Positions 2,936 through 52,440 are shown, numbered from the stretch's first letter. The stretch is DNA of 64,000 nt from Trypanosoma brucei (GCA_000002445.1 AE017150.2:896001-960000); one strand, 5' to 3'. The notes: generated by a model from the letters alone, not told the origin. A program made the numbers and translations.

Positions 2936-2957
2936 ACTAATCACGCTAATACAAACC

Positions 2958-38400: not shown

Positions 38401-41400
38401 ACAAACGACATGTTCAAAAACGAGAACATTAAAAAGACTTCTGTGGCGCTTCTTGGTGTGGCGACGTACATCCGAGCGGTGGTGGAGTACTACAAGCAGA
38501 ACAAGATTATTAAACCGCTACTGGCGCAAGCCGCGGCGGCGCAGCAAGAATACGATGCTGCCATGGAAAGTTTAAACAGGAAGAAGGAAGAACTGCGTAT
38601 TGTAAATGAAAAGTTAGAGGCGCTCACGAATCACCTTGAGGCCGTGAAGAAAGATAAACAGGATCTGGAAGAGAAGGTAAACGACACAGATGTCAAACTT
38701 ACTCGTGCGAAAAAACTTATCGAGGGCCTCGGCGGTGAAAAGGTGCGGTTTGCCGGGGAAAGCAAGCGATTTGAAGAAGAGCTCAAGTACGTGGTGGGCA
38801 ATGTCGTTGTTAGCGCCGGTGTCGTCGCCTACATGGGACCATTCTTGCACAAATACCGTGAGAGGGCCACTCGAACATGGCTTGACATGTGCAAGAAACA
38901 TAACATGTTGGTGTCAGAAGACTTTGCGCTGGCGAAGTTCGTTGGGTCGCCCATCGATATCCAAGCATGGAAGCTCCAACAGCTCCCCTCCGATAGCTTC
39001 TCAATTGACAATGCAATCATCGTGAAGACATCTGGTAGGTGGCCATTGTTCGTAGATCCGCAACAACAAGCGAATAACTGGATTCGAAACATGGAGCGCG
39101 CCAACGATTTGATTATCACGCGACCTTCAGAGGCCGACTGCATGAAAGTAATCCGGAATGCCGTCTCGCAAGGGCAACCCGTGTTGTTTGAGTGCGTAGA
39201 GGAGACGTTGGACCCGACTCTTGAAAATCTGCTTCTTAAGCGCCTGACACGGGAGGGAAATCTCATGGTAGTCCATCTCGGAGAGCCTGTCGTTTATAAT
39301 GAAGGTTTCCGCTTCTACATGACAACCAAGCTTCCACGGCCACACTACCTCCCGGAGGTGAGCACAAAAGTGACGTTGATTAATTTCATGATAACTCAAC
39401 ATGGCCTGCAAGACCAGTTGTTACAGCGTGTCATGATGAGTGAACGGCGCGAAGTTGAGGAGAAGAAGCAGGCCCTGACGCTGGAAGCGGCAGAGAACCA
39501 GGCGAACTTGAAGACGACGGAGGATAAAATTCTCGCGATTCTATCGTCCGAGGGGAATATACTAGAAAGTGAGACGGCTATCGAGGAGCTCGACAGCTCC
39601 AAGGTGCAAAGTGACCAGATCGCGAAGCGCCAGGGAGAAATTGAGGCGATGGAGCGCATTAGTGACCGCACGCGAAGCCTTTTTGTTCCTGTTGCTAACC
39701 TAGGCGCGACTCTTTTCTTCTGTGTAACAGAGTTGGCTAACATTGACCCCATGTATCAGAATTCGCTGAGCTCCTATGTGACAATCTTTCAGGAGGCTCT
39801 GCAGACCAGCGAGGCGTCTGAAGACGTGGAGGCACGCAACCTCAACATAAAGTTGACATTTCAAAAATCACTGTATCAACGGATCTGCCGTTCTCTGTTT
39901 GCTCGGGATCAGCTCCTCTTCTCTTTCATTATGTGCCTAAAGGTGCACGAGGTGGATCCGAGGCAATTACGTTGGCTGCTTACAGGTGGTTTTGAGGCGG
40001 ATGAGGGAATGACACCTAACCCCTTCGCATCATGGCTCCCTAGTCAATGCTGGAAACTTGTTTGGCGCGCCAGCACACAGCTCCCAGAACTGAAGTCACT
40101 GCAGGATATGGTACGTGAATATGAGTCGTTCTTCCGTAGTTACTACGAGGAGCCTGATCCTTTCGCTGTTGAGAAACCAGAAGCTATTGCTCAACTGTCT
40201 GACATATTGCAACTCATTATCGTTCGCTGTTTTCGCACAGACAAGATCGTCCCCGCGGTGACGGCGTACGTACATCATAAACTGGGCAGTTTTTTTGTTG
40301 AGCCGTCACTGTACACTCTGGACGAGGTGGTTACTGAGCTTGAAGCTGATCCTTCAGTACCACTAGTTTTGGTACTGTCGCCTGGTGCCGACCCAAATGT
40401 GGAGCTGGACCGTCTTGCGGAGCAGCGAGGGATGAGTGCTCGTCTTTCTAAGCTTTCTTTAGGCCAGGGTCAAGGTGTGTTCGCGCGTGAACTCATAGAG
40501 GAGGGCGTGCAAGCTGGAAACTGGGTGCTGTTGCAGAACTGTCATCTATACCAAGACTTTATGCCGGAACTTTCGCGTATTATTGAGAACTACAGCGATA
40601 GCACGGCCAAAATGAACCTGCATGCACAATATCGCCTCTGGCTCACATCACTTCCGAGCGAAACGTTCCCCATCTCCATCCTGCAGAACGGTGTGAAGCT
40701 TGTGCAGGAACCACCAAAAGGACTAAAGAGCAACCTCCTTCAGTCGTATCTTTCTGATCCTGTTTCCGATCAGACCTTCTTCAACTCCTCAAATAAGCCT
40801 GAGGCGTGGCGCAGAATGCTTTTCGGGTTGTGCTTCTTCCATGCCGTAGTGCAGGAACGTCGCCAGTTTGGACCGCTAGGATGGAACCGTATGTATGAGT
40901 TTAATGATACCGACAGGCGCATCAGCGTGCGGCAGTTGCACATGTTTCTTGAAGAGAGTGACGAAATACCGTACGAAGCCCTTCTGTACCTTACCGGGCA
41001 ATGCAATTACGGGGGGCGTGTAACAGACGACTGGGACCGCCGCTGCCTCATGGCAATTCTCTCGCTGTACATAACCCCCATGGTCCTCGACGATGATTAT
41101 GCATTCTCCGCTGAGGCACCTGAATACTTCGTCCCTCCATTTGGAGAGTACAACTCCTACGTGGAGCATATTCAAGAGTTGCCGCTTCAGCAACCACCCG
41201 CTGTATTTGGCCTACATGAGAACGCGAATATCACAAAAGATGAGAGAGACGCAAGGAATCTGCTTGAGGCTACGCTCTTGACTCAACCAAGGGACTCCTC
41301 TGACACTACATCAAAGTTAGATCCAAAGGCAACGGTTAAGGAAATGGCACACCACGTCTTCTCTCGTCTCCCGGTACTATTCGACATTGAGCAAATACAG

Positions 41401-42171
41401 CAAAGACATCCCATTGATTACTCCCAATCAATGAATACTGTATTGTTGCAGGAGTCGATCCGTTACAACCGGCTCCTGTTTATTGTGCGGCGAACGCTTG
41501 TTGATGTGCAAGACGCCATAAATGGTACTGTAGTAATGAGTGCCGACCTTGAAGAGGTGTTTAATGCAATGTACGATGGTAAGGTGCCCGAAGTATGGAA
41601 AAAGCGATCCTATCCATCGCTTAAACCATTTGGTTCATATGTAAACGATTTGGTAGAGCGGTTGGGGTTTCTGCAGACATGGTGTGATGAGGGACCGCCT
41701 TGTACCTTCTGGTTGAGTGGATTTTACTTCACTCAGTCATTCTTAACTGGTGTTATGCAGAACTACGCTCGTAAGTGGAAGATACCTATTGATAAGTTAA
41801 TATGGCAGTTTACTGTGATGAAGGAGGAAACATGTGAAGAAGCTCCCGAGGATGGTTGTTACATTTATGGGTTGTTCTTGGAGGGAGCCGGCTGGGATCC
41901 GGTTGAAAACGCGTTGTGTGAGAGCAAGCCGAAGGAACTCTTCGTCAAGTTCCCGCTGTTGAAGTTGGTGCCTTGCCGTCCCCAAGACCTTCCGGATTCA
42001 CCGGTGTATAAGTGCCCTTGCTACAAGACAACTGACCGACGCGGTGTGCTCTCAACAACTGGGCACTCAACCAATTTCATTCTTGTGATTGATTTGCCAC
42101 GTTTGAAGACGACAGAAGAGAGCCACTGGGTACTCCGGGGGGCAGCCCTCTTCACGCAGTTGCCGTTTTAG
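29431..42171 (+). CDS. dynein heavy chain, axonemal (4246 aa; the size and position of AAA1 suggest an inner-arm-type single-headed DHC)
   Basis: AAA1 P-loop GPAGTGKTETTKDLAKALG at ~aa 1566. Downstream AAA2-AAA4 Walker motifs (GDTGTGKT, GVGGSGRRS). A coiled-coil stalk, then a C-terminal domain. One uninterrupted 12.7-kb ORF. Confidence 0.95.
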   Translation: MNEEPPQMGKLLLEAEIPEELLKDKTPQEQNIIMRGHLTQRRFEQNETPVVRDVVRQKVKEDVRQLGLKTYPAQRRAQTTNQLNVMREMHQATKFRNPTAAPLPMRLPPLLGKMLRRQNSTGAKSTLLAQDGGASAVNPDAEVEKDGKRLASAQGQGDRVNPSASGRKYFLLEDFDSTDFELHTPEEWVALGEACGGTPARSRYFIKTTNGTEWRPCRVVAYNESSCCYRIVWECDGCSKWTTRLNIIFDDESELKWLERVRQAEAYRDETEAALRSRLYIEQLDKSILAPMDQVQMERILSLVARRFPITTLSLVDCCTREVEELYYYSLKRAQHWREMVSDPEERKRAHLLGLPPPPPGMVTETYTESTKELRGTIDTPSPNFEAARQFVAENLFQTHLLLNTTIHSIHSQWGEYKSQLFCLTQYGKGDTPLQLRLFSDMQSHRGIATAEKLRNEWSMNVRYTILNKLDLHFKFYEDDINRYNGSRMNRFVNLVNIMMTSQLRELLVASLQEYADFIYQYRTVPLDGDEEMEELQEDIEEAQHWVRRQNEWKAKLRADAEGEQERLRSGGASAGPTGSSRRVPPKAEEEDADGEVPFVWRLGQFRNSIPYTRRVVEMTMNTRGLQPLFILNLVEEDGRVVFFPTLEEVKLRVRGVFESCFEHADRIQGMGDQLFPLLQLPQVILQPLGPQEPVVCEARRLIDKALEDNVEAPMQLLQMYQTFEYILRLDPNDLVEEANERQLSLHDFDWTFERLTRDKERIVHRTHNHVKYEMFFIDCTGIKTTLITKATNVQDALMEALAQRLRGNCTSIINEYNMMSNRMAVEPRTPEELQELRDFLDAIPGRQEQINVVFDTVTSGFDLLFKYRYDFSPEACYDYHTAYEWPRLLQQGLEDGNFRSREYRTLLMQVLRDNCEVLTENIVRLANTVEDFTHFGDDARADQYYEHAKALEQRIREHQAQMQLYNSHETLFALPQSKWPQLKAIKAQLEPYYVLWEVVSHFQNESERWLNTRLHALQPFEADRQLTDWAKKVAVVSKKIKEAEPLAVAKRIRENIAIFKPNISLLYALRSNLQATHWKAIFQVCGVPREKQNLGAGGSESNDSRPFSDFIKLGMLDFMPQIESIAAVAQKSFELESELMAMETEWKKLLFEIEPYQDTYKLKANDIMQLTLDEHILKTQSMLGKPIVRQAPALQARVLQWEKLLDKVQCTMDEWFKCQGTWAYLEPIFSSADISRSLPKEKQLFVVIDESWHKIMEQARTTPQILTRCQDELLLRTLVENNNNLDIILKKLQQFLETKRMAFPRFYFISNEELLQILSDSKDPYLVQPYLSKCFEGIKRIHFADAHDILAMESSEGEVVRLVKTINPNDFQNRVELWLQGLETTMKETILDQLKQATADYVQRKKRAEFIRAWPGQVVIAICSLYWTMEATEAMSKEGTVGLTSYHEKCVGQLDELIVLVRDRNLAVVERCTLEALVVVEVHAKDIIGQLSEKGVDSPKSFDWLAQLRYYWEEGHLQVHQINASLRYGYEYLGNTGRLVITPLTDRCYRTLIGALHLNYGGAPEGPAGTGKTETTKDLAKALGKYCVVYNCSDQITAKDMAKLFKGLSQSGSWGCFDEFNRIEIQVLSVIAQQVAVIQEAIIQKRSEFIFDGAQIRLDPGCAIFITMNPGYAGRAELPDNLKALFRPVAMMVPNYAMIGEIQLYSYGFLYGKELAEKIVATYRLCSEQLSSQDHYDYGMRAVKAVLTAAGRLKRAYPDEDEMVLMLRSIQDVNLPKFLTQDVELFKGIISDLFPGVNLPEPDYVDMHNALVKVCTTRNLQLTPYFELKVRQTYEMIVVRHGMMLVGYSFGGKTKVLHCLSESLGLMEAVGKERRTRLFTMNPKSVTMPQLYGKVEQSGEWTDGILPYRFRLAAQDTSTDRKWLVLDGPVDAVWIENMNTVLDDNKKLCLQNGDIIAMSKEMNLIFEVQDLAHASPATVSRCGMVYVEPDSLGWRCLIDSYFNTIPEQLRKEEAAVAALRKLVDVFLQPMLDVARREVKPVIPQGALVAVSGFIKLFSTLLSSLPSAEETAAAAAVDPSTLERNLLMKIEGWFLFSLVWSVGGCLFTKDRAIFSNALHTLISSAASEGLYKFVLPLMENKRSFFDFRLETEDGVRFAQWIDYVPSLVIEEETEYQDVIVPTSAQLRFSYLTQLMINSMHPVLLVGDTGTGKTIMMKALLKSLPEDTYALNMIQFSAQTSAGNLQRRIDGSLEKRRKGVYGPPINKRMIIFVDDTNLPQVEEYGAQPPIELLRQFLDHGAWYNHSKDGIEYRRLVDVLLVCAMGPSGGGRSEVTQRFARHFNSIAVPAFDEPTLQKIFTTLIDWILGKGFPPALRGMGSALVSATVELYETLVDKLKPSPEKSHYTFNLRDVSKVFQGIDMANPAKITDELKLGQLWLHEVSRAFADRFTEDKDTAWFFGEVCKLSMSHLKLSLDSVKTAEIPTLFSTFMNEEGVYEEITDAAEARRVLEGKVESYNALSGSGELDLVIFNYVLIHVARICRVLHQPGGHLLLIGVGGSGRRSCARFAAFLQECDYMTITPTKDYDHSNFLDDIRTLLLRTGRDGYTTVFVMADTQISSENFLEDICSLLNTSEVPGIWDAKQDKEAYEDAVAALREVGKELGRPDSAEALQALFTERCRKYMHIALCFSPIGSALRDRLRKFPSLVNCTTIDWFSDWPEDGLRSVAARFLSKVELTERERAAAEEMFVQFQQQVRDLGRVYFDEMRQYTYVTPTSYLDLLSTFARMLCEKRTELTAMMHRYANGLTQLKKTEDQVEVMQQELALMRPELAKKQLETDNLIKEVELESKLAEEQRAIVAVDEAAANEQAAAAKEIKDASQQKVDEAQPLVEQAQRAVLDLDPKALQEIKALKTPPQGVKYVIEVLCTLLGGQYKPKAVRDALTGSVTVPYWEHAKVTLLTAEFKSTLLNAYPVIVDTAPNEQIEEVKKKMTNDMFKNENIKKTSVALLGVATYIRAVVEYYKQNKIIKPLLAQAAAAQQEYDAAMESLNRKKEELRIVNEKLEALTNHLEAVKKDKQDLEEKVNDTDVKLTRAKKLIEGLGGEKVRFAGESKRFEEELKYVVGNVVVSAGVVAYMGPFLHKYRERATRTWLDMCKKHNMLVSEDFALAKFVGSPIDIQAWKLQQLPSDSFSIDNAIIVKTSGRWPLFVDPQQQANNWIRNMERANDLIITRPSEADCMKVIRNAVSQGQPVLFECVEETLDPTLENLLLKRLTREGNLMVVHLGEPVVYNEGFRFYMTTKLPRPHYLPEVSTKVTLINFMITQHGLQDQLLQRVMMSERREVEEKKQALTLEAAENQANLKTTEDKILAILSSEGNILESETAIEELDSSKVQSDQIAKRQGEIEAMERISDRTRSLFVPVANLGATLFFCVTELANIDPMYQNSLSSYVTIFQEALQTSEASEDVEARNLNIKLTFQKSLYQRICRSLFARDQLLFSFIMCLKVHEVDPRQLRWLLTGGFEADEGMTPNPFASWLPSQCWKLVWRASTQLPELKSLQDMVREYESFFRSYYEEPDPFAVEKPEAIAQLSDILQLIIVRCFRTDKIVPAVTAYVHHKLGSFFVEPSLYTLDEVVTELEADPSVPLVLVLSPGADPNVELDRLAEQRGMSARLSKLSLGQGQGVFARELIEEGVQAGNWVLLQNCHLYQDFMPELSRIIENYSDSTAKMNLHAQYRLWLTSLPSETFPISILQNGVKLVQEPPKGLKSNLLQSYLSDPVSDQTFFNSSNKPEAWRRMLFGLCFFHAVVQERRQFGPLGWNRMYEFNDTDRRISVRQLHMFLEESDEIPYEALLYLTGQCNYGGRVTDDWDRRCLMAILSLYITPMVLDDDYAFSAEAPEYFVPPFGEYNSYVEHIQELPLQQPPAVFGLHENANITKDERDARNLLEATLLTQPRDSSDTTSKLDPKATVKEMAHHVFSRLPVLFDIEQIQQRHPIDYSQSMNTVLLQESIRYNRLLFIVRRTLVDVQDAINGTVVMSADLEEVFNAMYDGKVPEVWKKRSYPSLKPFGSYVNDLVERLGFLQTWCDEGPPCTFWLSGFYFTQSFLTGVMQNYARKWKIPIDKLIWQFTVMKEETCEEAPEDGCYIYGLFLEGAGWDPVENALCESKPKELFVKFPLLKLVPCRPQDLPDSPVYKCPCYKTTDRRGVLSTTGHSTNFILVIDLPRLKTTEESHWVLRGAALFTQLPF

Positions 42172-43190
42172 ATGTAGACTTACGCGATGTACCAAATGCA
42201 AAACTTCTTAGGAAAGGAGAAGAGCTGTGTAGAAATATATATATTTAGTTGTGATAGAAAAAGATGAAGAGTAGATCAGACTGCTAGTTTATTGTGTACC
42301 TCCGTGTTGTTGGTGTTTGTCTGATGTGGTTTCGTACTCCCCCCCCCCGTTTCCATCACTTTGAATGTTTATATTTGCATTTGAAACCCCTATAGTCGAT
42401 ACCCCGCCTCGCACGCACTGCAGTTTGCAATGTGAAGATGGAATGGACGATTGTATCAAACCCCTTTTTCTATTACTAATGGGTTTTGACATGTACACTA
42501 CCACAGCACGTGTGTTCTTGAACGATAGCATGTCACCCCACCTTCCTCCCTCCGCCTCTTCCCTGCTTGATGCTTCTTGTTTCACTTCATAGTAGTAGTA
42601 GTTTCTTACCTCTATGCTAGGTTGTGTTGTGCGCCTACACGCCTCTTGCCGCTGTGAAGCTCACCATACCACCAGCGGGTGTGAGACGGCAGTCGCCGCT
42701 AACCGGCCATTTGTCGCAATGTGGAGGGAAAGAAGTGGTTGTGGCAGCAGACTAGCGGGGGAGCGCATGCGGAATCAGTGGGAATGAACACTTTCCAATG
42801 CCGTTGCAACTATTTTACTGCTTCTTCCTGTATGCATATATATATATATAATTTTCTTCCTTCACTGTAGACGGATGTCTTTCATTGTCACGGTACTTTA
42901 AGTGACCAAACCAGACTATCTTACTGTTCCATGTTTCTCTGCTTCTGACATAGTACGGTAAATACTATAGTAAACGCTTTTTAGAGATACATAAAGGAGG
43001 GGGATAATAAAAGTGGCAAACGCAGCATAGATAGTATTTGGTTTATCGTTGGCAGCCGTTGAAGGGTGGGTGAGTTTTGAAGTGCCGTTACGTACACCGA
43101 CCGCGTAGCCTAGTACCTGGTTCATTTAAAGGAGGAAAAGGAGAACGGAAGTATTATTCATCCCATCTCCCCTCTCGTCAGCTCATTTCG

Positions 43191-45299
43191 ATGCGCGTTG
43201 TATACCAGCGTTTCTTCCCGGTGCTTCTTCTTTTACTCAGCCTTGAGCACCTCTGCAGCCGACATGCGTGCGCGGACGAAGGAGAGGAAGGAGGCGTGAA
43301 TCACACAGTGGGAGGCAACCTTACGGGCACGCATTCGTACCGTTCGCCATCTCTGCTTTCCATAGGCGATTCACTTGTCACCGTGTCCGAAACATGGGAT
43401 CCGTCGGACACGGAGCAGTACGTTGACGTGATTACCGAGTATAGCGCCCATTACGGGGCCCCGGCAGTAACACAGGTGGCGGTGCGTAACGATACGTTGG
43501 ATTTTCATGCTGTGTATAAGCATAAGGAGGACCGTGAAAGTACGATGCACCCCACCGCTGTTGCGATAGACGGAATGATATTTGTCCTTATATTTTGCAA
43601 AAATATAGGTGCCAGTGGCAACCAAACGGGAGACGCAGTGATCATGCCGCATGTAGCCAAGGGTGTGGTGTTACCAGGCGGCGCGACGGGCAACGTGTGG
43701 GTAAACTGGACGCAGCTGATGCCCATCAGATCACTGCTTCCCAAAGTTATCGAGGGGAAGAGAGTTAGTATGTTTTTTGGTGGCGGTGGGAATACTATTG
43801 TGATGACGAAGGGGACGCTTGTCATGCCTGTGCAAATGGTAAGAACGGACGATCAACGGTTCGCCACGATTATATACTCCTCAAACAACGGCACCAGCTG
43901 GACCGTTGCAAAAGGTTTCACGGATTCAGGGTGTAGGGAGTCCTCAGTTCTTATCTGGAAGCGTAAAATGCTTCTTGTTGCGCGGTCCGACGATGGTTAT
44001 ACTAAAGTGTTTGAATCGGACTACATGGGCGACGTATGGACGGAGTCCCTCGGGACAATATCTCGAGTATTAGGAAATTCACCCGATCGGAGAGGGCCTG
44101 GAAATCAGGGTAGTGCCATCACCATCCCTCTCGGAAACGAGACGGTTATGTTTTTCACTCAAACAACCGTATCCAATAGCTCTGACAGCAATGAGGGAGA
44201 CATTAATCGAATCGACCAGCGCATCTGGTTTAGCGATGGCAGCCGCATGGTTAAGGTCGGACACATTTACTGGAACGACCACTTATCAAGCAGCCGTAGT
44301 TATCTTTTGTACTCCAACAATAGGCTCTTGTGTGCCTACGAGATGGGTGCAGAGAAGGCGTATGCTATCACCGTCAGGAGCCTGGTTGGTGAATTGGAAA
44401 ATGCAAGATTTGCGCGAGAGACGTGGGCGAGACAGGATGCATATATCTCAGGTATATGCTCTTCAGCGAAGGAAAGCGCACCCTGTGCGAGCGGTGTTCC
44501 CGTAGATGGCCTTGTTGGGCTCCTTTCCAGCATGGTAAACGGGACTGCGTGGGTGGATGCTTATTTTTCTGTGAACGCTAACTTCGTTGGAGGTTTGGCC
44601 GGCCCTGCGGGTCTGACATTTGAAGGAACAGCACGCGGGGGTCGGTGGCCTGTTGGTGTGCAGGGGCAGAATCAACGATTTCACTTCGCCAACACTCATT
44701 TCACGCTGGTGCTGACACTGACAATTCATGAGCAAACTGCACCTAGAGCTCCAGTGCTTGTTACACGTCTTTACGAGAATGGGAGCTACATAGACTTGGA
44801 ATTCTCATACACAGATGACAAGAGATGGCATATAAAGTATGGTGCGGAATACGGCTCGACATCTGGGCAATGGGCGTTAAACCAAGAACACCAGTTAGCA
44901 TTTGTGCTCCGTGGTGGTACTATCGCTGTGTATCTCGACGGGAAACGTATGCCAACGATGGCAAGGATGTTAGCAGGAAACGGTAATCTGCTCAACATCA
45001 CCCATTTTTATATTGGTGGCTATGGCACGGTAAAGCAAAGCCCCAGAGACAGGTTAACCATACGAAACGCTATGCTGTACAACCGCCCATTGAAAAAGGC
45101 AGAGATCGACAAGTTGTTCGCAGCGAAAAGCGGGATAACCGCTGCAACAAAAGGCATAGAACCACTCACACCCAAGTGGAATCATAAAACCAAAGACCTT
45201 GAACCGCAGAGTGGTGATGGGCGCGCAGACCACGCGTTCCGTACCCCTTCATGGGCATTACCTTTGTTTGTTCTGCACTTATATTCCCTATTTATGTAA
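43191..45299 (+). CDS. trans-sialidase-like surface protein (predicted catalytically inactive family member) with N-terminal signal peptide and C-terminal hydrophobic GPI-type signal
   Basis: Signal peptide MRVVYQRFFPVLLLLLSLEHLCS. Degenerate Asp box SSNNGTSW. The family-defining VTVxNVxLYNR motif is present as LTIRNAMLYNRPL. A hydrophobic C-terminus (WALPLFVLHLYSLFM). No FRIP motif seen. Confidence 0.8.
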   Translation: MRVVYQRFFPVLLLLLSLEHLCSRHACADEGEEGGVNHTVGGNLTGTHSYRSPSLLSIGDSLVTVSETWDPSDTEQYVDVITEYSAHYGAPAVTQVAVRNDTLDFHAVYKHKEDRESTMHPTAVAIDGMIFVLIFCKNIGASGNQTGDAVIMPHVAKGVVLPGGATGNVWVNWTQLMPIRSLLPKVIEGKRVSMFFGGGGNTIVMTKGTLVMPVQMVRTDDQRFATIIYSSNNGTSWTVAKGFTDSGCRESSVLIWKRKMLLVARSDDGYTKVFESDYMGDVWTESLGTISRVLGNSPDRRGPGNQGSAITIPLGNETVMFFTQTTVSNSSDSNEGDINRIDQRIWFSDGSRMVKVGHIYWNDHLSSSRSYLLYSNNRLLCAYEMGAEKAYAITVRSLVGELENARFARETWARQDAYISGICSSAKESAPCASGVPVDGLVGLLSSMVNGTAWVDAYFSVNANFVGGLAGPAGLTFEGTARGGRWPVGVQGQNQRFHFANTHFTLVLTLTIHEQTAPRAPVLVTRLYENGSYIDLEFSYTDDKRWHIKYGAEYGSTSGQWALNQEHQLAFVLRGGTIAVYLDGKRMPTMARMLAGNGNLLNITHFYIGGYGTVKQSPRDRLTIRNAMLYNRPLKKAEIDKLFAAKSGITAATKGIEPLTPKWNHKTKDLEPQSGDGRADHAFRTPSWALPLFVLHLYSLFM

Positions 45300-46560
45300 A
45301 ACACGGAGCTGTCCCGGTGCAGTGTGACGAATTGGAGGGGCCGTGCACCACCTGGGGTAGCTTTTCTCAGTGCCCCTCCCCCTAACTCCCATTAATACAC
45401 AGGCATATATTTTTTCCAAACATGAGCGAACGGTGCTTTCCACCACTGATTTTATGCAATAAACAAAAGCACATATATGCGTATACATATATAAACTCTT
45501 TTTAAATAACTGTCACGATTCATCTCTCCCCCCACTCCCTTGTTTTCCCCCTTCTGTTACCTATATCACATTCGATCCGCAACATGTTAAGGGCGAATGT
45601 AATCAAATAGCGATGGTACACTCGTCCCAGAGGAAAGCACAAAATGCCAGTCTTGTCGCTTTTATCCCTCTTCCCCCGCACCAGTTTTTTGCGTTGAATA
45701 AATAAATTATGGGGTGAACATCAACGGCCACTATGAGCGACTGTGGAGGTGGGAAGAATGGTGGAGGCACCTCTTGGCGGTGCAACATTAGCCACGACCG
45801 TTGGCGAATACATTGAAAACCATTTGAACAGGAAACAGAGGAGCAATCCCTGGAGTAAAAACCGCTTTGTTTCGTATTCTTTTTTAAAAGGAGTGAGTAA
45901 ACGTGTACGGCTGGAGGTGTGCCCCCACAGCAACGCACATTCTCGTAGGCAACGTACCGCTACAACTGCTCTAATGTTGGCCTGACGCCTACCGTGGAGC
46001 TGACGGAATCGGCCCAACGATACAAATATTGCTCTACACAACGTTGATAACAAATTGGTTGACACATACAATGAACGTGAAATAGCGTATCTTATCCCTG
46101 CACCCAAAATAAAAGGGAGTTAAGCACGAAAGAACGCTTTGCATTACCTCAACTTTTCACCGTATACACAAATAAGTATCACCAGAGGAAATATTACGAA
46201 TACCAACTACTACAACAGACAATCAAACAAAAAATTCAAAACACCACTAATGAAAAACACACAACCACCGCACCACATCAAAGAAAAAATAACAAAGGCT
46301 CAAACAGCTAATATAAAGAAACATCATAATTCATAAGACCTCCATCAAAGAAACCAGTAATAGCACAATAAACTACATCCCTTCTTACCTTCTCCATTAT
46401 GATAATAAATGTTTTGAGTACCTGTGTCTCACTAACCAATTTGTTGGGATATGTGATATGGCTGCTCTCTTCCATTATTATTTGTGTTATCCTTTTCATA
46501 TTTCTTGTTTATTATCCTCGAGTGTATGTGTGATTATTTGATATCTTGTGTAACTCCTTT

Positions 46561-46616
46561 TTCTATTGTCACTGTTGCATTTCCCCTTTACTGACACGCT
46601 CTTCCCTCTTTCCCGC
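46561..46616 (+). promoter_or_regulatory. polypyrimidine tract upstream of each array ORF, a candidate trans-splicing signal repeated in every unit
   Basis: ttccccttta(c)tgacacgctcttccctctttcccgc lies 45-60 nt upstream of each ATG (46660, 48594, 50522, 52441, 54366, 56306, 58246, 60186). Confidence 0.45.
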
Positions 46617-46659
46617 ATATGTGTGTATTTGATAAACTCATAAGGAAGCAACACTGACA

Positions 46660-47763
46660 ATGAGCATGGACACCCGTATGGTGAATTTTGGTTTTACGCG
46701 TGCTGCTCTCCTGTGCGGTCTTTTATTATTGCTAACTGCCGTGTGTCCGCTGCATGTGACTGCTGCTGATAATGGACGTGTGATCGTTAATGTTAAATCC
46801 TATTTTTCAATGGACAATTTTGCTTTTGCTCATCGAGGCAATTACTTCGTAAGCTACAAAAATGCTGCGGCATATTGTGGCGACAATGGTGCTGTGCTTC
46901 CTGCCGATCAAACGGAGGCGGCGCACCAAAGTTTGCAGAGCGCAATAAAGCGTGTAATTACGGGTTCGGATGCTTTCAGCTACCTTGGTGGAGATGCTGT
47001 GTACAGTAGTGGCGAAGCAATTGAAGCTGATAAGCGTTGTAAGCCTGGAGACGCGGCATCTTCCCGCTATTGTGTGTATCGTTGGAATAAGGGATTGTTT
47101 GCAAAGGCTTTGCCTGATGGTCAGGGGGTGGCGTTCTGGCGTGGTTCATATGTCAAATACGGTGGTGCGGCCTCAATGAATGGTTACCCATCCTTTTGGG
47201 GTAGTGAATATCCCAAGCGTGGTCAGTTGTATACCCTTTCATGGTATCATACAGGAGATGATGTGACTACCTGGTATGATGGAAAAGATATGTCAGGACG
47301 CATAAAGTGGGCGAGTGATAATCCCGATACAAAAACTGAAAACTACGTTATCTTATGTGAAGTCCACGATTCTATCAGCACGACGACAACCACAACAACT
47401 ACAACTACGACAACAACTACCACTACAACTACAGCTGCACCTGCCTCAGGCGAAGTACCGGAACCAACTGTGACAAAGGATGAAGAAGTTACTGTGACAA
47501 CTGTGTCATTGGAAGAGAGAAGTAATTGGCACATTATTCTCATAGCTCTAATTTCTGTTGTTTCCCTCATTGTGTTGCTACTTTTCCTTTTACGTTGGTT
47601 TTGTGATTATGATGTTAAAAAGGAGATCATTCCCATGACGCTGCGTGAAGTTGTTGGAGAGCCGTTGTTTGTCCTGGAGCCAACACCTTTTGTTCCCCCA
47701 GAGGGTTTTGCTGCTCCTCCCTTAGCCCTGCAATATTATAACCAAATGAGAACCAGTGAATAA
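46660..47763 (+). CDS. array copy 1: type I membrane protein with signal peptide, C-type-lectin-like domain, ~18-Thr stalk, TM helix and a 54-aa cytoplasmic tail
   Basis: MSMDTRMVNFGFTRAALLCGLLLLLTAVCPLHVTAAD (signal). CTLD-like blocks (A.YC..NGAVLPADQTEAAHQSL; AFSYLGGD; YCVYRWNKG; YPSFWGSEYP; YVILCEV; 4 Cys). Poly-Thr. TM segment WHIILIALISVVSLIVLLLFLL. Tail RWFCDYDVKKEIIPMTLREVVGEPLFVLEPTPFVPPEGFAAPPLALQYYNQMRTSE. Confidence 0.8.
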   Translation: MSMDTRMVNFGFTRAALLCGLLLLLTAVCPLHVTAADNGRVIVNVKSYFSMDNFAFAHRGNYFVSYKNAAAYCGDNGAVLPADQTEAAHQSLQSAIKRVITGSDAFSYLGGDAVYSSGEAIEADKRCKPGDAASSRYCVYRWNKGLFAKALPDGQGVAFWRGSYVKYGGAASMNGYPSFWGSEYPKRGQLYTLSWYHTGDDVTTWYDGKDMSGRIKWASDNPDTKTENYVILCEVHDSISTTTTTTTTTTTTTTTTTTAAPASGEVPEPTVTKDEEVTVTTVSLEERSNWHIILIALISVVSLIVLLLFLLRWFCDYDVKKEIIPMTLREVVGEPLFVLEPTPFVPPEGFAAPPLALQYYNQMRTSE

Positions 47764-48593
47764 TATTAGCGTCACATCGTGTATCACATGGGTGGTGGTT
47801 GAGTGATGTTTAGGATCAAGTGGGGTAATGAATACTGTACCGCTTTCATCCTACGTTACGGACCGTCACAATTTCTAGCTTCGTGTATTGTTTCACTTCC
47901 TATTATTACTTTCAGTAGTGCTCAATACTTCATTGTTTCATATAATTATTACTTTTATGTTCCTAATATTAACGGTCTCCTTGTACCATGTTGGCTCTGC
48001 GAGGGACTTCCGATGTGTGGCATCACTTCCCTCCGACCACATCATTGTTCTTTTAGTGTGTGACCCATTGAACCATCTTTACTGTTTGATGTCCCATTGT
48101 TTCGTTGTTGTTAGTGTTGATTATTTATTTCGTGTGTGGGTGTCATGTTTAGTTCGCGTTATTTCATGTTTTACTTCCATGTATATGTGGGAGGCTTGTA
48201 GGTCCTCCCTGTTACGTGTGATGTATTGCTATACGTGTAACTTGCAGCACTTAATTATTTTAAAAACCTGTACGACGCTGTGTTAAACGAGAGTTCCATA
48301 GTGTTCAATCCCTGCGTTATAGTTGGTCCATTATGATAATAAATGTTTTGAGTACCTGTGTCTCACTAACCAATTTGTTGGGATATGTGATATGGCTGCT
48401 CTCTTCCATTATTATTTGTGTTATCCTTTTCATATTTCTTGTTTATTATCCTCGAGTGTATGTGTGATTATTTGATATCTTGTGTAACTCCTTTTTCTAT
48501 TGTCACTGTTGCATTTCCCCTTTACTCACACGCTCTTCCCTCTTTCCCGCATATGTGTGTATTTGATAGACTCATAAGGAAGCAACACTGACA

Positions 48594-49691
48594 ATGAGCA
48601 TGGACACCCGTATGGTGAATTTTGGTTTTACGCGTGCTGCTCTCCTGTGCGGTCTTTTATTATTGCTAACTGCCGTGTGTCCGCTGCATGTGACTGCTGC
48701 TGATGGTGATAATGGACGTGTGATTGTTAATGTGAAGGAGTATTTCTCCATGCCTAATTATGCATTTATTCGAAGAAGAAAGTATATGGTTGATCACGAA
48801 AGCACCAATCGTTACTGCGTGTATTTTGGTGCCGAAGTTGCTGCCGATCAAACGGAGGCGGCACACCAAAGTTTGCAGGATGCTATGAAGCGTGTAATTA
48901 CGGGTTCGGATGCTTTCAGCTACCTTGGTGGAGATGCTGTGTACAGTAGTGGCGAAGCAATTGAAGCTGATAAGCGTTGTAAGCCTGGAGACGCGGCATC
49001 TTCCCGCTATTGTGTGTATCGTTGGAATAAGGGATTGTTTGCAAAGGCTTTGCCTGATGGTCACGGGGTGGCGTTCTGGCATGGTTCATATGTCAAATAC
49101 GACGGTGCGGCCTCAATGAATGGTTACCCATCCTTTTGGGGTAGTGAATATCCCAAGCGTGGTCAGTTGTATACCCTTTCATGGTATCATACAGGAGATA
49201 ATTCGACTACCTGGTATGATGCTGATGGGGTGTCAGGCACTATTCGTTGGACAAGTCGAAACTTTGACACGAAGTCTCAGGATTACGTTATTGTTTGTGA
49301 AGTTCAAAGATATGTTACTGTGGCAGCTGATAACTACACAACAACTACCACTACAACTACAGCTGCACCTGCCTCAGGCGAAGTACCGGAACCAACTGTA
49401 ACAAAGGATGAAGAAGTTACTGTGACAACTGTGTCATTGGAAGAGAGAAGTAATTGGCACATTATTCTCATAGCTCTAATTTCTGTTGTTTCCCTCATTG
49501 TGTTGCTGCTTTTCCTTTTACGTTGGTTCTGTGATTATGATGTTAAAAAGGAGATCATTCCCATGACGCTGCGTGAAGTTGTTGGAGAGCCGTTGTTTGT
49601 CCTGGAGCCAACACCTTTTGTTCCCCCAGAGGGTTTTGCTGCTCCTCCCTTAGCCCTGCAATATTATAACCAAATGAGAACCAGTGAATAA
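48594..49691 (+). CDS. array copy 2 (divergent patches 1 and 3; only 8 Thr in the stalk)
   Basis: Same conserved N- and C-termini. Its private patch 1 is KEYFSMPNYAFIRRRKYMVDHESTNRYCVYFGAEV. Patch 3 (GDNSTTWYDADGVSGTIRWTSRNFDTKSQDYV) is shared with copy 3. Confidence 0.8.
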   Translation: MSMDTRMVNFGFTRAALLCGLLLLLTAVCPLHVTAADGDNGRVIVNVKEYFSMPNYAFIRRRKYMVDHESTNRYCVYFGAEVAADQTEAAHQSLQDAMKRVITGSDAFSYLGGDAVYSSGEAIEADKRCKPGDAASSRYCVYRWNKGLFAKALPDGHGVAFWHGSYVKYDGAASMNGYPSFWGSEYPKRGQLYTLSWYHTGDNSTTWYDADGVSGTIRWTSRNFDTKSQDYVIVCEVQRYVTVAADNYTTTTTTTTAAPASGEVPEPTVTKDEEVTVTTVSLEERSNWHIILIALISVVSLIVLLLFLLRWFCDYDVKKEIIPMTLREVVGEPLFVLEPTPFVPPEGFAAPPLALQYYNQMRTSE

Positions 49692-50521
49692 TATTAGCGT
49701 CACATCGTGTATCACATGGGTGGTGGTTGAGTGATGTTTAGGATCAAGTGGAGTAATGAATACTGTACCGCTTTCATCCTACGTTACGGACCGTCACAAT
49801 TTCTAGCTTCGTGTATTGTTTCACTTCCTATTATTACTTTCAGTAGTGCTCAATACTTCATTGTTTCATATAATTATTACTTTTATGTTCCTAATATTAA
49901 CGGTCTCCTTGTACCATGTTGGCTCTGCGAGGGACTTCCGATGTGTGGCATCACTTCCCTCCGACCACATCATTGTTCTTTTAGTGTGTGACCCATTGAA
50001 CCATCTTTACTGTTTGATGTCCCATTGTTTCGTTGTTGTTAGTGTTGATTATTTATTTCGTGTGTGGGTGTCATGTTTAGTTCGCGTTATTTCATGTTTT
50101 ACTTCCATGTATATGTGGGAGGCTTGTAGGTCCTCCCTGTTACGTGTGATGTATTGCTATACGTGTAACTTGCAGCACTTAATTATTTTAATAGCTTATA
50201 TGAGGTTACATTAAACGAGAGTTCCATAGTGTTCGGTATCTGCGTTATAGTTCATCCATTATGATAATAAATGTTTTGAGTACCTGTGTCTCACTAACCA
50301 ATTTGTTGGGATATGTGATATGGCTGCTCTCTTCCATTATTATTTGTGTTATCCTTTTCATATTTCTTGTTTATTATCCTCGAGTGTATGTGTGATTATT
50401 TGATATCTTGTGTAACTCCTTTTTCTATTGTCACTGTTGCATTTCCCCTTTACTCACACGCTCTTCCCTCTTTCCCGCATATGTCTGTATTTGATAGACT
50501 CATAAGGAAGCAACACTGACA

Positions 50522-51610
50522 ATGAGCATGGACACCCGTATGGTGAATTTTGGTTTTACGCGTGCTGCTCTCCTGTGTGGTATTTTATTATTGCTAACTG
50601 CCGTGTGTCCGCTGCATGTGACTGCTGCTGATGGTGATGGACGCGTGATTGTTAATGTGAAGACGTATTTCTCTGTTCCCACATATGCGTTCATTAGGAA
50701 AGGTAGATATGCTGTTAATTACGAAAATGCTAATTATTATTGCGTCTTCTTTGGTGCTGTGCTTCCTGCCGATCAAACGGAGGCGGCGCACCAAAGTTTG
50801 CAGGATGCTATGAAGCGTGTAATTACGGGTTCGGATGCTTTCAGCTACCTTGGTGGAGATGCTGTGTACAGTAGTGGCGAAGCAATTGAAGCTGATAAGC
50901 GTTGTAAGCCTGGAGACATTGCATCTTCCCGCTATTGTGTGTATCGTTGGAATAAGGGATTGTTTGCAAAGGCTTTGCCTGATGGCTGGGGGGTGGCGTT
51001 CTGGCATGGTTCATATGTCAAATACGACGGTGCGGCCTCAATGAATGGTTACCCATCCTTTTGGGGTAGTGAATATCCCAAGCGTGGTCAGTTGTATACC
51101 CTTTCATGGTATCATACAGGAGATAATTCGACTACCTGGTATGATGCTGATGGGGTGTCAGGCACTATTCGTTGGACAAGTCGAAACTTTGACACGAAGT
51201 CTCAGGATTACGTAGTCACCTGTGAGGTTCAAACTGATATTATCACGACGACAACCACAACAACTACAACTACAACTACAGCTGCACCTGCCTCAGGCGA
51301 AGTACCGGAACCAACTGTGACAAAGGATGAAGAAGTTACCGTGACAACTGTGTCATTGGAAGAGAGAAGTAATTGGCACATTATTCTCATAGCTCTAATT
51401 TCTGTTGTTTCCCTTATTGTGTTGCTACTTTTCCTTTTACGTTGGTTCTGTGATTATGATGTTAAAAAGGAGATCATTCCCATGACGCTGCGTGAAGTTG
51501 TTGGAGAGCCGTTGTTTGTCCTGGAGCCAACACCTTTTGCTCCCCCAGAGGGTTTTGCTGCTCCTCCCTTAGCCCTGCAATATTATAACCAAATGAGAAC
51601 CAGTGAATAA
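50522..51610 (+). CDS. array copy 3
   Basis: Private patch 1 is KTYFSVPTYAFIRKGRYAVNYENANYYCVFFGAV. Patch 3 is shared with copy 2. The tail has a single V->A change (TPFAPPEG). Confidence 0.8.
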   Translation: MSMDTRMVNFGFTRAALLCGILLLLTAVCPLHVTAADGDGRVIVNVKTYFSVPTYAFIRKGRYAVNYENANYYCVFFGAVLPADQTEAAHQSLQDAMKRVITGSDAFSYLGGDAVYSSGEAIEADKRCKPGDIASSRYCVYRWNKGLFAKALPDGWGVAFWHGSYVKYDGAASMNGYPSFWGSEYPKRGQLYTLSWYHTGDNSTTWYDADGVSGTIRWTSRNFDTKSQDYVVTCEVQTDIITTTTTTTTTTTTAAPASGEVPEPTVTKDEEVTVTTVSLEERSNWHIILIALISVVSLIVLLLFLLRWFCDYDVKKEIIPMTLREVVGEPLFVLEPTPFAPPEGFAAPPLALQYYNQMRTSE

Positions 51611-52440
51611 TATTAGCGTCACATCGTGTATCACATGGGTGGTGGTTGAGTGATGTTTAGGATCAAGTGGAGTAATGAATACTGTACCGCTTTCATCCTA
51701 CGTTACGGACCGTCACAATTTCTAGCTTCGTGTATTGTTTCACTTCCTACTATTACTTTCAGTAGTGCTCAATACTTCATTGTTTCATATAATTATTACT
51801 TTTATGTTCCTAATATTAACGGTCTCCTTGTACCATGTTGGCTCTGCGAGGGACTTCCGATGTGTGGCATCACTTCCCTCCGACCACATCATTGTTCTTT
51901 TAGTGTGTGACCCATTGAACCATCTTTACTGTTTGATGTCCCATTGTTTCGTTGTTGTTAGTGTTGATTATTTATTTCGTGTGTGGGTGTCACGTTTAGT
52001 TCGCGTTACTTCATGTTTTACTTCCATGTATATGTGGGAGGCTTGTAGGTCCTCCCTGTTACGTGTGATGTATTGCTATACGTGTAACTTGCAGCACTTA
52101 ATTATTTTAAAAACCTGTACGACGCTGTGTTAAACGAGAGTTCCATAGTGTTCAATCCCTGCGTTATAGTTGGTCCATTATGATAATAAATGTTTTCAGT
52201 ACCTGTGTCTCACTAACCAATTTGTTGGGATATGTGATATGGCTGCTCTCTTCCATTATTATTTGTGTTATCCTTTTCATATTTCTTGTTTATTATCCTC
52301 GAGTGTATGTGTGATTATTTGATATCTTGTGTAACTCCTTTTTCTATTGTCACTGTTGCATTTCCCCTTTACTCACACGCTCTTCCCTCTTTCCCGCATA
52401 TGTGTGTATTTGATAGACTCATAAGGAAACAACACTGACA

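What the first reader, a model, noticed from the sequence alone, without database searches (positions are those of the whole stretch)
42172..46394. Transition from a conserved 'core' polycistron to a surface-gene compartment: TS-like gene immediately upstream of the lectin-like array
Up to 42.2 kb the plus-strand genes are housekeeping (SNARE, DnaJ, PRP19, dynein...). After ~1 kb of AT-rich spacer there is a trans-sialidase-like gene whose motifs are decayed: LTIRNAMLYNR instead of VTVxNVxLYNR, SSNNGTSW instead of SxDxGxTW, and no FRIP. The novel array follows. Juxtaposition of a sialic-acid-family surface protein and a candidate glycan-binding receptor array on one transcription unit is suggestive of functional coupling in host-glycan interaction. 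It also marks this as an accessory-type region.
Basis: partly seen in the sequence, partly recalled or inferred. Interest (0 to 1): 0.5.

Follow-up and report, generated by a model that had tools for sequence, protein, structure and literature searches.

The report
Known T. brucei TS-like gene beside IGP40
The region is an already annotated and experimentally studied stretch of Trypanosoma brucei chromosome 2: a catalytically dead trans-sialidase-like flagellar-pocket protein lies next to the known IGP40 array of ER glycoproteins, and the adjacency looks historical rather than functional.

Summary
The ORF and its decayed motifs are real: 43191-45299 (+), 702 aa, Pfam BNR_3 + TS_C, each about E=1e-58. 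The organism is Trypanosoma brucei brucei TREU927 chromosome 2, not T. cruzi. The protein is identical to Tb927.2.5280 (TbTS-like D1 / ESP1). That protein is published as a predicted GPI-anchored protein of the bloodstream-form flagellar pocket.

The "novel lectin-like array" is the published IGP40 subfamily (Pfam DUF5075). The published IGP40 qRT-PCR primers match all 8 copies exactly, and IGP40 localises to the ER, not the surface.

D1 keeps the sialic-acid arginine triad, Glu230 and Glu357. It lacks the Tyr342 nucleophile, Asp96, Tyr119/Trp120 and Trp312, so it is most likely an inactive, possibly lectin-like, pseudo-enzyme.

Synteny does break right after the dynein gene:
- T. cruzi has TS genes and no IGP.
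- T. theileri has neither.
- L. mexicana has one gene and then the chromosome end.

In T. brucei the next annotated protein after the array is an ABC transporter, so this is a roughly 20-kb island and not a compartment boundary. Functional coupling is not supported. Verdict: already known, low interest.

The parts
29431..42171 (+). Axonemal-type dynein heavy chain (4246 aa). It is the last gene of the synteny block shared by all trypanosomatids examined.
   Evidence: ORF. Orthologues are 81% identical in T. vivax, 78% in T. theileri, 77% in T. cruzi and 63-65% in Leishmania/Leptomonas. The upstream neighbours (adh_short, kinase, Prp19, TTL) are the same in T. cruzi, T. vivax and T. theileri; in L. 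mexicana two kinases, Prp19 and TTL lie in the flank shown.
42172..43190 (+). Ordinary intergenic spacer (dynein 3' UTR and TS-like 5' UTR) with polypyrimidine tracts followed by AG, for example 42852-42863 then AG at 42869.
   Evidence: 1019 nt at 44.6% GC, within the range of the other intergenic regions in the window. It is unique in the window. No tRNA or Rfam hit.
43191..45299 (+). TbTS-like D1 / ESP1 (Tb927.2.5280), 702 aa: signal peptide, sialidase-like beta-propeller, lectin-like domain, C-terminal GPI signal.
   Evidence: Identical to P0125 = XP_951700.1 of TREU927. Pfam BNR_3 + TS_C. Named TbTS-like D1 in PMC3795030 and ESP1 in PMC4587319 supplement file 6.
43191..43274 (+). Predicted signal peptide (aa 1-28, MRVVYQRFFPVLLLLLSLEHLCSRHACA).
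   Evidence: Hydrophobic N-terminus. A SignalP probability of 0.999 is listed for Tb927.2.5280 in PMC4587319 supplement file 5.
43347..44342 (+). Sialidase-like catalytic-fold domain (BNR_3, aa 53-384).
- FRIP is degraded to YRSP (43338-43349).
- All three Asp boxes are degenerate: SAHYGAPA at 43443-43466, SSNNGTSW at 43878-43901, SDYMGDVW at 44016-44039.
- Kept: the Arg triad (R51, R265, R340), E250 and E384.
- Lost: nucleophile Tyr342 (becomes R369), Asp96 (becomes H120), Trp312 (becomes I338); Tyr119 and Trp120 are deleted.
   Evidence: Pfam. HMMER alignment to PDB 3pjq/1s0i with residue mapping. An independent MAFFT alignment, A1. Coordinates.
44499..45098 (+). Lectin-like C-terminal domain (TS_C / ConA-like, aa 437-636) ending in the degenerate family signature LTIRNAMLYNR (45054-45086).
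   Evidence: Pfam TS_C 1.1e-58 and Laminin_G_3 2.7e-06. Motif coordinates. 58% identical to the T. congolense orthologue over this domain.
45210..45296 (+). Probable GPI-anchor addition signal: small residues SGDG, a polar spacer, then the hydrophobic tail WALPLFVLHLYSLFM.
   Evidence: Sequence. A GPI prediction score of 0.996 and 0 TM helices for Tb927.2.5280 in PMC4587319 supplement file 5.
45300..46389 (+). Unique spacer between the TS-like gene and the first IGP40 repeat unit. No credible gene.
   Evidence: Unique in the window. The DAL972 annotation calls a 146-aa minus-strand ORF here, but in the window that stretch splits into two ORFs whose overlapping coordinates put them in different reading frames, 45603-45938 and 45721-46107, so it is probably spurious.
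46390..61950 (+). Tandem array of 8 IGP40 genes. It is context for this finding, not part of the TS-like gene.
- CDS coordinates: 46660-47763, 48594-49691, 50522-51610, 52441-53535, 54366-55475, 56306-57415, 58246-59355, 60186-61295.
- Spacers between copies are 830 nt.
   Evidence: Pfam DUF5075 'IGP family C-type lectin domain' at 5e-85. Copy 2 is identical to the TREU927 protein P0122. Both published IGP40 qRT-PCR primers match all 8 copies with 0 mismatches. Array limits come from blastn.

Best explanation
The interval is the annotated gene Tb927.2.5280 of Trypanosoma brucei brucei TREU927 chromosome 2, with its flanking intergenic regions. It encodes TbTS-like D1 (also named ESP1), a secreted-pathway member of the trypanosome trans-sialidase family.

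Shown:
- The two-domain TS architecture is intact, with a signal peptide and a GPI-type C-terminus.
- The protein is made in bloodstream forms and, when tagged at its own locus, localises only to the flagellar pocket (published).

Inferred from the alignments:
- It cannot carry out the retaining sialidase/trans-sialidase reaction. The Tyr342 nucleophile is Arg (His in the T. congolense orthologue), Asp96 is His, the acid/base Asp59 position is Thr, and the acceptor-site residues Tyr119/Trp120/Trp312 are deleted or replaced.
- It still keeps the three arginines that clamp the sialic-acid carboxylate, plus Glu230 and Glu357.
- The dead catalytic-fold domain is as conserved between T. brucei and T. 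congolense (63%) as the lectin domain (58%).
- The most likely mode of action is therefore a non-enzymatic, carbohydrate-binding (lectin-like) pseudo-enzyme displayed in the flagellar pocket, analogous to the T. cruzi inactive TS (Y342H).

The downstream array is the ER-resident IGP40 family. The adjacency of the two is a by-product of genome history. Both sit in the lineage-variable slot just beyond the dynein heavy chain gene that ends a pan-trypanosomatid synteny block. They are co-transcribed only in the trivial sense that kinetoplastid polycistrons string together unrelated genes.
For: Identity:
- 702/702 residues match XP_951700.1.
- The window is collinear with T. b. gambiense chromosome 2 and T. 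equiperdum at about 97.8% and 97.4% nucleotide identity.
- The literature names are TbTS-like D1 and ESP1.

Fold: Pfam 1e-58 for each domain; TcTS crystal chains at about E=1e-92.

Residue states: HMMER mapping and an independent MAFFT alignment agree on the retained R51, E250, R265, R340 and E384, and on the loss of the Tyr nucleophile, Asp96, Tyr119/Trp120 and Trp312.

Expression and location:
- Peptides were found in bloodstream forms of T. b. brucei and T. b. gambiense.
- 381-fold surface enrichment.
- SignalP 0.999 and GPI 0.996.
- Flagellar pocket only.

Constraint: an intact orthologue exists in T. congolense (57% identity overall; 63% and 58% in the two domains).

IGP40 identity and ER location.

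Adjacency is not coupling:
- T. vivax has dynein followed directly by the IGP array, with no TS gene or remnant.
- T. cruzi has dynein followed by TS genes and no IGP.
- T. theileri and L. mexicana have neither.

Island, not compartment: the ABC transporter XP_951709.1 follows the 8 IGP accessions, and the locus is internal to the chromosome.
Against: - No enzymatic or binding assay of D1 was found in the papers read, so both inactivity and lectin function are inferred from sequence.
- An Asp (D73) lies one residue before the Asp59-aligned position, and the T. congolense orthologue has Glu at that position. An acid/base group cannot be fully excluded.
- The pocket residues for the N-acetyl group and for the acceptor are gone, so sialic-acid binding may be lost as well.
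- A published table (PMC3855035) scores the Arg245/Arg314/Glu230 equivalents of the T. congolense orthologue as not conserved. My alignments put conserved residues one position away for Glu230 and Arg245, and six positions away for Arg314 (published D346, mine R352). The disagreement is about alignment register.
- The TS-like/IGP adjacency is conserved in T. brucei subspecies and, judging from consecutive accession numbers, in T. congolense. A lineage-restricted functional link is therefore not formally excluded.
Confidence: 0.85

Rival explanations
1. One reading: the TS-like protein and the lectin-like array form a functionally coupled module for host-glycan interaction, co-expressed from one transcription unit.
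For: - The two are adjacent on the same strand with no strand switch, tRNA or other break between them.
- The adjacency is retained in T. b. gambiense and T. equiperdum and probably in T. congolense, where the protein accessions CCC89562.1 and CCC89563.1 are consecutive.
- Both are secretory-pathway glycoproteins with carbohydrate-binding-type folds.
Against: - T. vivax keeps the IGP array at the same position with no TS gene or remnant.
- T. cruzi has TS genes there but no IGP.
- IGP40 is ER-resident, and Tb927.2.5290 and Tb927.2.5330, the two IGP40 IDs searched for, do not occur in the surface-proteome supplementary files. D1 is found in the flagellar pocket.
- The other T. brucei TS genes named in the literature are on chromosomes 5 and 7, and the other IGP subfamilies carry chromosome 6 or Tb09 identifiers, so the pair does not recur.
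- Kinetoplastid polycistrons are not operons (established knowledge).
Confidence: 0.05
2. The TS-like gene is a decaying relic (functional pseudogene) that happens to keep an open frame.
For: - The catalytic nucleophile is lost, all three Asp boxes are degenerate, and FRIP and VTVxNVxLYNR are degraded.
- The literature calls the TS-like genes 'degenerated and probably not functional'.
- The lineage has been lost altogether in T. vivax.
Against: - The 702-codon frame is intact in three T. brucei subspecies with at most 3 amino-acid differences.
- A full-length orthologue exists in T. congolense at 57% identity, with the highest conservation in the 'dead' domain.
- Peptides were detected in two independent proteomic studies, and the endogenously tagged protein has a specific flagellar-pocket location.
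Confidence: 0.07
3. The site marks a true boundary between a core and an accessory/surface-gene compartment of the T. cruzi type.
For: - Synteny ends exactly after the dynein gene in all five lineages compared.
- What follows is lineage-specific: TS genes and TS pseudogene fragments in T. cruzi 37-70 kb from a contig end, RHS in T. theileri, and a chromosome end in L. mexicana.
- GC drops from about 51% to about 42% on entering the array.
Against: - In T. brucei the insert is only about 20 kb.
- The next annotated protein is an ABC transporter.
- Later chromosome 2 gene IDs include SBPase and a small nuclear protein.
- The locus is more than 200 kb from either end of the chromosome in DAL972 and T. 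equiperdum.
- IGP genes are described as expressed from housekeeping regions.
Confidence: 0.1

Closest known systems
TbTS-like D1 = ESP1 (Tb927.2.5280, XP_951700.1), T. brucei brucei TREU927
   Same: Identical in sequence, 702/702 residues. It has the same neighbours: dynein upstream and IGP40 downstream.
   Different: Nothing. This is the gene itself.
TconTS-Like3 of T. congolense (CCC89562.1 / G0UJK9). The name is assigned here because the residue numbers R62, K86, S262, S277 and H382 of the published table fit this protein.
   Same: - It is the orthologue, at 57% identity.
- FRIP is YRSP in both.
- Asp96 is His in both, with the same Tyr119/Trp120 deletion.
- The Arg triad and Glu230 are retained.
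- It is probably followed by an IGP gene, TCIL3000_2_1410.
   Different: The nucleophile position is His rather than Arg, and the Asp59 position is Glu rather than Thr. No DNA was available to me, so adjacency is inferred only from consecutive accession numbers.
T. cruzi enzymatically inactive trans-sialidase (Tyr342His; PDB 3PJQ)
   Same: It has the same two-domain fold. The catalytic Tyr is replaced while the arginine triad is retained. It is the top PDB hit, at E=5.7e-93. It works as a lectin-like protein (from my own knowledge of that literature).
   Different: It is only about 30% identical in the catalytic domain. The T. cruzi protein keeps Asp59, Asp96, Tyr119 and Trp312, whereas D1 has lost them. 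Sialoside or lactose binding therefore cannot simply be assumed for D1.
IGP40 subfamily of invariant glycoproteins (Tb927.2.5330 and paralogues; Allison et al. 2014, PMC4497807)
   Same: The downstream array is this family. Evidence: the DUF5075 domain, the type I membrane topology, an exact match to the TREU927 protein, and exact matches to the published primers.
   Different: None for the array itself.
Species-specific gene families at synteny-block ends in trypanosomatid genomes (El-Sayed et al. 2005, cited from my own knowledge; T. cruzi review PMC7559697)
   Same: The dynein gene ends a conserved block, and each lineage carries different, mostly secretory or surface-family, content just beyond it.
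   Different: In T. brucei the inserted content is small and is followed by ordinary genes. No retroelement or structural RNA was detected at the junction.

Membership tests
Trypanosome trans-sialidase/sialidase-like protein family (Pfam BNR_3 + TS_C; cell-surface phylome Fam47) | N-terminal sialidase-type beta-propeller domain | tested here: met
   BNR_3 at E=1.2e-58, covering profile positions 2-308 of 308. Aligned to TcTS and T. rangeli sialidase crystal chains.
Trypanosome trans-sialidase/sialidase-like protein family (Pfam BNR_3 + TS_C; cell-surface phylome Fam47) | C-terminal lectin-like (ConA-fold) domain joined to the propeller | tested here: met
   TS_C at E=1.1e-58, covering profile positions 1-201 of 202, and Laminin_G_3 at 2.7e-06. 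Listed as Fam47 in PMC4587319 supplement file 5.
Trypanosome trans-sialidase/sialidase-like protein family (Pfam BNR_3 + TS_C; cell-surface phylome Fam47) | Secretory signal peptide and C-terminal GPI-type hydrophobic signal | tested here: met
   Hydrophobic N- and C-termini are visible in the sequence. Published predictions are SignalP 0.999 and GPI 0.996.
Catalytically active trans-sialidase / sialidase (GH33 retaining mechanism, TcTS numbering) | Tyr342 nucleophile | tested here: not met
   It aligns to R369 with HMMER and to Ser or a gap with MAFFT. The T. congolense orthologue has His382.
Catalytically active trans-sialidase / sialidase (GH33 retaining mechanism, TcTS numbering) | Asp59 acid/base catalyst | tested here: inconclusive
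   It aligns to T74, but D73 is adjacent, and the T. congolense orthologue has Glu85 at the aligned position.
Catalytically active trans-sialidase / sialidase (GH33 retaining mechanism, TcTS numbering) | Arginine triad (Arg35, Arg245, Arg314) with Glu230 and Glu357 | tested here: met
   R51, R265, R340, E250 and E384 lie in ungapped, well-anchored alignment blocks with two methods.
Catalytically active trans-sialidase / sialidase (GH33 retaining mechanism, TcTS numbering) | Acceptor/transfer site Tyr119 and Trp312, and the N-acetyl pocket residues Asp96 and Trp120 | tested here: not met
   Tyr119 falls in a deletion, Trp120 is Gly, Trp312 is Ile338 and Asp96 is His120.
Catalytically active trans-sialidase / sialidase (GH33 retaining mechanism, TcTS numbering) | FRIP motif and canonical Asp boxes (SxDxGxTW) | tested here: not met
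   FRIP is YRSP. The Asp boxes read SAHYGAPA, SSNNGTSW and SDYMGDVW.
Catalytically active trans-sialidase / sialidase (GH33 retaining mechanism, TcTS numbering) | Measured sialidase or trans-sialidase activity | not testable with these tools
   No assay of D1 was found in the papers read. The literature only states 'probably not functional'.
T. cruzi TcS (trans-sialidase) superfamily in the 'disruptive' genome compartment | The organism is T. cruzi | tested here: not met
   The sequence is identical to T. b. brucei TREU927 proteins.
T. cruzi TcS (trans-sialidase) superfamily in the 'disruptive' genome compartment | Strict VTVxNVxLYNR signature | tested here: not met
   The motif reads LTIRNAMLYNR: T, N, L, Y, N and R are kept, and the three Val positions are L, I and A. 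The TS gene at the syntenic T. cruzi position has the canonical VTVKNVFLYNR.
IGP (invariant glycoprotein) family, IGP40 subfamily (the downstream array) | IGP-type C-type-lectin-like ectodomain (Pfam DUF5075), type I membrane topology, and identity to the published genes | tested here: met
   DUF5075 at 5e-85 and 8e-83. A TM segment follows a Thr-rich linker. Copy 2 is identical to the TREU927 protein. The published primers match 8 of 8 copies.

The most novel reading that the evidence does not exclude
D1 and its T. congolense orthologue may be sialoglycan-binding pseudo-enzymes. They keep the arginine triad, Glu230 and Glu357 behind a remodelled pocket, and would act as a flagellar-pocket receptor for host sialoglycoconjugates. 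The adjacency to IGP40, kept in T. brucei and T. congolense, would then reflect a lineage-specific dependence of this receptor on the neighbouring ER lectin-like proteins for folding or export.
Probability: 0.05. Interest if true: 0.45.

Novelty: already known. Interest (0 to 1): 0.1.

Why it matters
It matters little as a discovery. Both genes are annotated in the T. brucei reference genome and have been localised experimentally.

Three things are of modest use:
1. It corrects a species misassignment, which would otherwise mislead any follow-up built on T. cruzi compartment biology.
2. It gives a clean negative test of functional coupling through T. vivax synteny.
3. It notes that D1 and TconTS-Like3 retain the sialic-acid arginine triad even though a published table scores those positions as lost. 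This keeps a lectin-type function for a flagellar-pocket protein of a human pathogen on the table.

Tried and rejected
As a result, I could not read directly what lies downstream of the array, the T. congolense gene order, or the neighbours of other TS and IGP loci. I inferred these from accession order and gene IDs in papers.
- dN/dS among T. brucei subspecies is uninformative, with 3 non-synonymous and 0-1 synonymous differences.
- I tested whether the T. cruzi TS gene at the syntenic position is the orthologue of D1. It is 26% identical to D1, has many closer relatives at 40-65% identity among the family representatives returned for D1 (a library without species names), and D1 is not among its top 30 hits. 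A published phylogeny places the D1 lineage apart from the South American TS genes. Positional orthology is therefore unproven.
- Rfam and tRNA scans of the whole window found nothing.
- Pfam found nothing in the ORF fragments of window 62-64 kb or in T. cruzi L003 25.9-31.6 kb.
- Tandem Repeats Finder does not report the 1.9-kb array because its maximum period is 500.
- I did not run a structure prediction. Only three sequences could be submitted for the alignment, and the fold is already fixed by E~1e-92 matches to crystal structures.

Full report
**What is in the interval.**
- The only long ORF between the dynein stop (42171) and the start of the array repeat (about 46390) is on the + strand. 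Its first ATG is at 43191 and its stop is at 45297-45299, giving 702 aa.
- Pfam finds a full-length sialidase-type propeller (BNR_3, 1.2e-58) and the trans-sialidase C-terminal lectin-like domain (TS_C, 1.1e-58).
- The best solved structures are T. cruzi trans-sialidase and T. rangeli sialidase, at about E=1e-92 over 600 residues.
- The sequence-level observation is therefore real.
- The "AT-rich spacer" is not special. It is 1019 nt at 44.6% GC, against 33.6-51.3% GC and lengths up to 1406 nt for the other intergenic regions of the same gene cluster.
- The upstream genes are housekeeping, as stated.

**Which organism and which gene.**
- The protein search returned "trans-sialidase, putative" of T. 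brucei.
- The window's protein is residue-for-residue identical to the TREU927 entry XP_951700.1. It differs by 3 residues from T. b. gambiense DAL972 and by 1 from a T. equiperdum entry.
- IGP copy 2 is identical to a TREU927 protein.
- The window is collinear with T. b. gambiense chromosome 2 and T. equiperdum at about 97.8% and 97.4%.
- The window is therefore T. b. brucei TREU927 chromosome 2, not T. cruzi.
- The gene is Tb927.2.5280. Ammar et al. call it TbTS-like D1. They found its peptides in bloodstream forms of T. b. brucei and T. b. gambiense and regard the TS-like genes as "degenerated and probably not functional" as enzymes (PMC3795030).
- Gadelha et al. call it ESP1. It shows 381-fold enrichment in the surface-labelled proteome, SignalP 0.999, GPI score 0.996 and no TM helix. 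When tagged at the endogenous locus it localises only to the flagellar pocket (PMC4587319 and its supplements).
- Jackson et al. describe it as a basal TS lineage that is widespread but missing from T. vivax (PMC3605285).

**The array.**
- The eight downstream genes hit Pfam DUF5075, "IGP family C-type lectin domain", at 5e-85.
- Allison et al. (PMC4497807) defined the IGP34, IGP40 and IGP48 subfamilies and chose Tb927.2.5330 as the IGP40 representative. They showed that IGP40 and IGP48 co-localise with BiP in the ER and are retained there through the lumenal domain.
- Their IGP40 qRT-PCR primers match all eight copies in the window with no mismatch.
- The array is therefore neither novel nor, on present evidence, a surface receptor.

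**State of the catalytic machinery.**
- I mapped TcTS residues through the HMMER alignment. The PDB chain numbering was checked against the D59A and Y342H mutant entries. I repeated the mapping with an independent MAFFT alignment that includes TbTS, the T. congolense orthologue and TcTS.
- Retained: Arg35 (R51, within YRSP), Glu230 (E250), Arg245 (R265), Arg314 (R340) and Glu357 (E384). All lie in ungapped blocks with several flanking identities.
- Lost: the Tyr342 nucleophile (R369; His382 in T. congolense), Asp96 (H120), Tyr119 and Trp120 (a 5-residue deletion shared with T. congolense) and Trp312 (I338).
- Ambiguous: Asp59, which aligns to T74 with D73 next to it.
- All three Asp boxes are degenerate.
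- A retaining sialidase or transferase mechanism is therefore very unlikely, although the carboxylate clamp persists.
- The propeller domain is 63% identical between T. brucei and T. congolense, and the lectin domain is 58% identical. The tails are only 27-45% identical. This argues for constraint on the "dead" domain.
- The closest functional analogy is the T. cruzi Tyr342His inactive TS, which is also the top PDB hit (3PJQ). D1 has lost more of the pocket, so binding specificity cannot be read across.
- Gbem et al. list the T. congolense TS-Like3 equivalents of Glu230, Arg245 and Arg314 as S262, S277 and D346. In that protein E261 and R276 sit one residue before the listed positions, and R352 is in register in my alignments. 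The published table therefore probably overstates the decay because of alignment register.

**Synteny test.** I used the dynein heavy chain as an anchor and retrieved the orthologous loci.

| Lineage (locus) | Upstream genes in the flank shown | Immediately downstream of dynein |
|---|---|---|
| T. cruzi (L003) | adh_short, kinase, Prp19, TTL | A TS-family gene with canonical VTVKNVFLYNR, then TS pseudogene fragments; no IGP within 10 kb; locus 37-70 kb from a contig end |
| T. vivax (L004) | adh_short, kinase, Prp19, TTL | After a 1.2-kb spacer, at least five tandem DUF5075 genes; no TS gene or remnant by tblastn or profile HMM |
| T. theileri (L006) | adh_short, kinase, Prp19, TTL | A multipass membrane protein and an RHS gene |
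| L. mexicana (L007) | two kinases, Prp19, TTL | One gene (POLR3C-like), then the chromosome end |
| T. congolense | not read | TS-like orthologue and an IGP gene carry consecutive accessions (CCC89562.1/CCC89563.1, G0UJK9/G0UJL0), implying adjacency |

- Two conclusions follow.
- Second, the IGP array occurs there without a TS neighbour in T. vivax, and TS genes occur there without IGP in T. cruzi.

**Island or compartment.**
- The window has exactly one TS-like gene and eight IGP40 genes, and the spacers are unique.
- TREU927 RefSeq accessions run XP_951700.1 (TS-like) to XP_951709.1 (Tb927.2.5410, a 1281-aa ABC protein). That leaves exactly eight accessions for the IGP40 copies.
- Later chromosome 2 IDs include SBPase and a small nuclear protein.
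- The locus lies at about 673 of 895 kb in DAL972 and about 551 of 815 kb in T. equiperdum.
- Allison et al. describe IGP genes as expressed from housekeeping regions.
- The TS-like gene plus array is therefore a roughly 20-kb island inside the chromosome core.
- All genes from about 5.9 kb to 61.3 kb are on the + strand, with no tRNA or known RNA gene between them. This fits one polycistron running from the divergent strand-switch region at 3-5 kb.
- In kinetoplastids that carries no functional meaning (established knowledge).

**Verdict.**
It is wrong about the species, the novelty of the array, the "surface compartment" and the suggested coupling.
- Everything here is already annotated and partly characterised.
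- The remaining open point is whether D1 binds glycans in the flagellar pocket. That needs biochemistry.

Noticed in passing
window 3091-3513 and 4634-5056: A perfect 423-nt inverted repeat (100% complementary, arms 1120 nt apart) sits in the divergent strand-switch region between the minus-strand ORFs (659-3028) and the plus-strand gene cluster. The centre carries a C14 tract and a G9 tract, and the arms carry (CA)9/(GT)9. GC skew changes sign here. It may be the bidirectional transcription start region of the polycistron that includes the dynein, TS-like and IGP40 genes.
   Followed up: partly
window 46660-61295: The eight IGP40 copies are not homogenised evenly. Copies 5-8 are 92-96% identical to each other, and copy 1 is 88-94% identical to them. 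Copies 2-4 are only 80-91% identical to anything else. Lengths run 362-369 aa because of the Thr-rich linker. Array coding GC is about 45% and the spacers about 38%, against about 51% for the upstream genes.
   Followed up: partly
window ~45627-46067 (= L001 12437-12877): The T. b. gambiense annotation calls a 146-aa minus-strand gene in the spacer between the TS-like gene and the IGP array. In TREU927 the same stretch splits into two ORFs, 45603-45938 and 45721-46107, whose overlapping coordinates put them in different reading frames. It is probably a spurious gene call.
   Followed up: partly
T. congolense protein P0002 (CCC89562.1), residues 85/86, 131/132, 261/262, 276/277, 352: The published active-site table for TconTS-Like3 (PMC3855035, Table 2) lists K86, P132, S262, S277 and D346. 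HMMER and MAFFT alignments place E85, H131, E261, R276 and R352 at the catalytic columns instead. The published alignment seems shifted by one residue at four of these positions (by six at D346/R352), and it hides a conserved Glu230 and Arg triad.
   Followed up: partly
window 61951-64000: After the last IGP40 unit there are about 2 kb with no ORF longer than 140 codons stop-to-stop. There is no Pfam hit, no repeat elsewhere in the window and no RNA-family hit, and the + strand is purine-rich towards the end. By accession order, the next annotated protein is the ABC transporter Tb927.2.5410.
   Followed up: partly
L003 (T. cruzi GCA_015033625.1) 23810-25873 and 28309-30295: The gene directly after the T. 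cruzi dynein orthologue is an ordinary TcS-type trans-sialidase family member (VTVKNVFLYNR; FRIP reads FVSP). It is followed by a TS pseudogene broken across several frames. The locus is 37-70 kb from a contig end, so in T. cruzi itself this position may well be a core/TS-rich boundary.
   Followed up: partly
L004 (T. vivax) 31517-32757: The fifth IGP copy of the T. vivax array is split between two reading frames (31517-31870 and 31534-32757). This suggests a frameshifted copy or an assembly error near the contig end.
   Followed up: no
L007 (L. mexicana FR799580.1) 23014-29014: In L. mexicana the orthologous dynein gene lies 6 kb from the end of the chromosome record, with a single POLR3C-like gene after it. 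The T. brucei junction after the dynein gene may therefore correspond to an ancestral chromosome end or fusion point.
   Followed up: no
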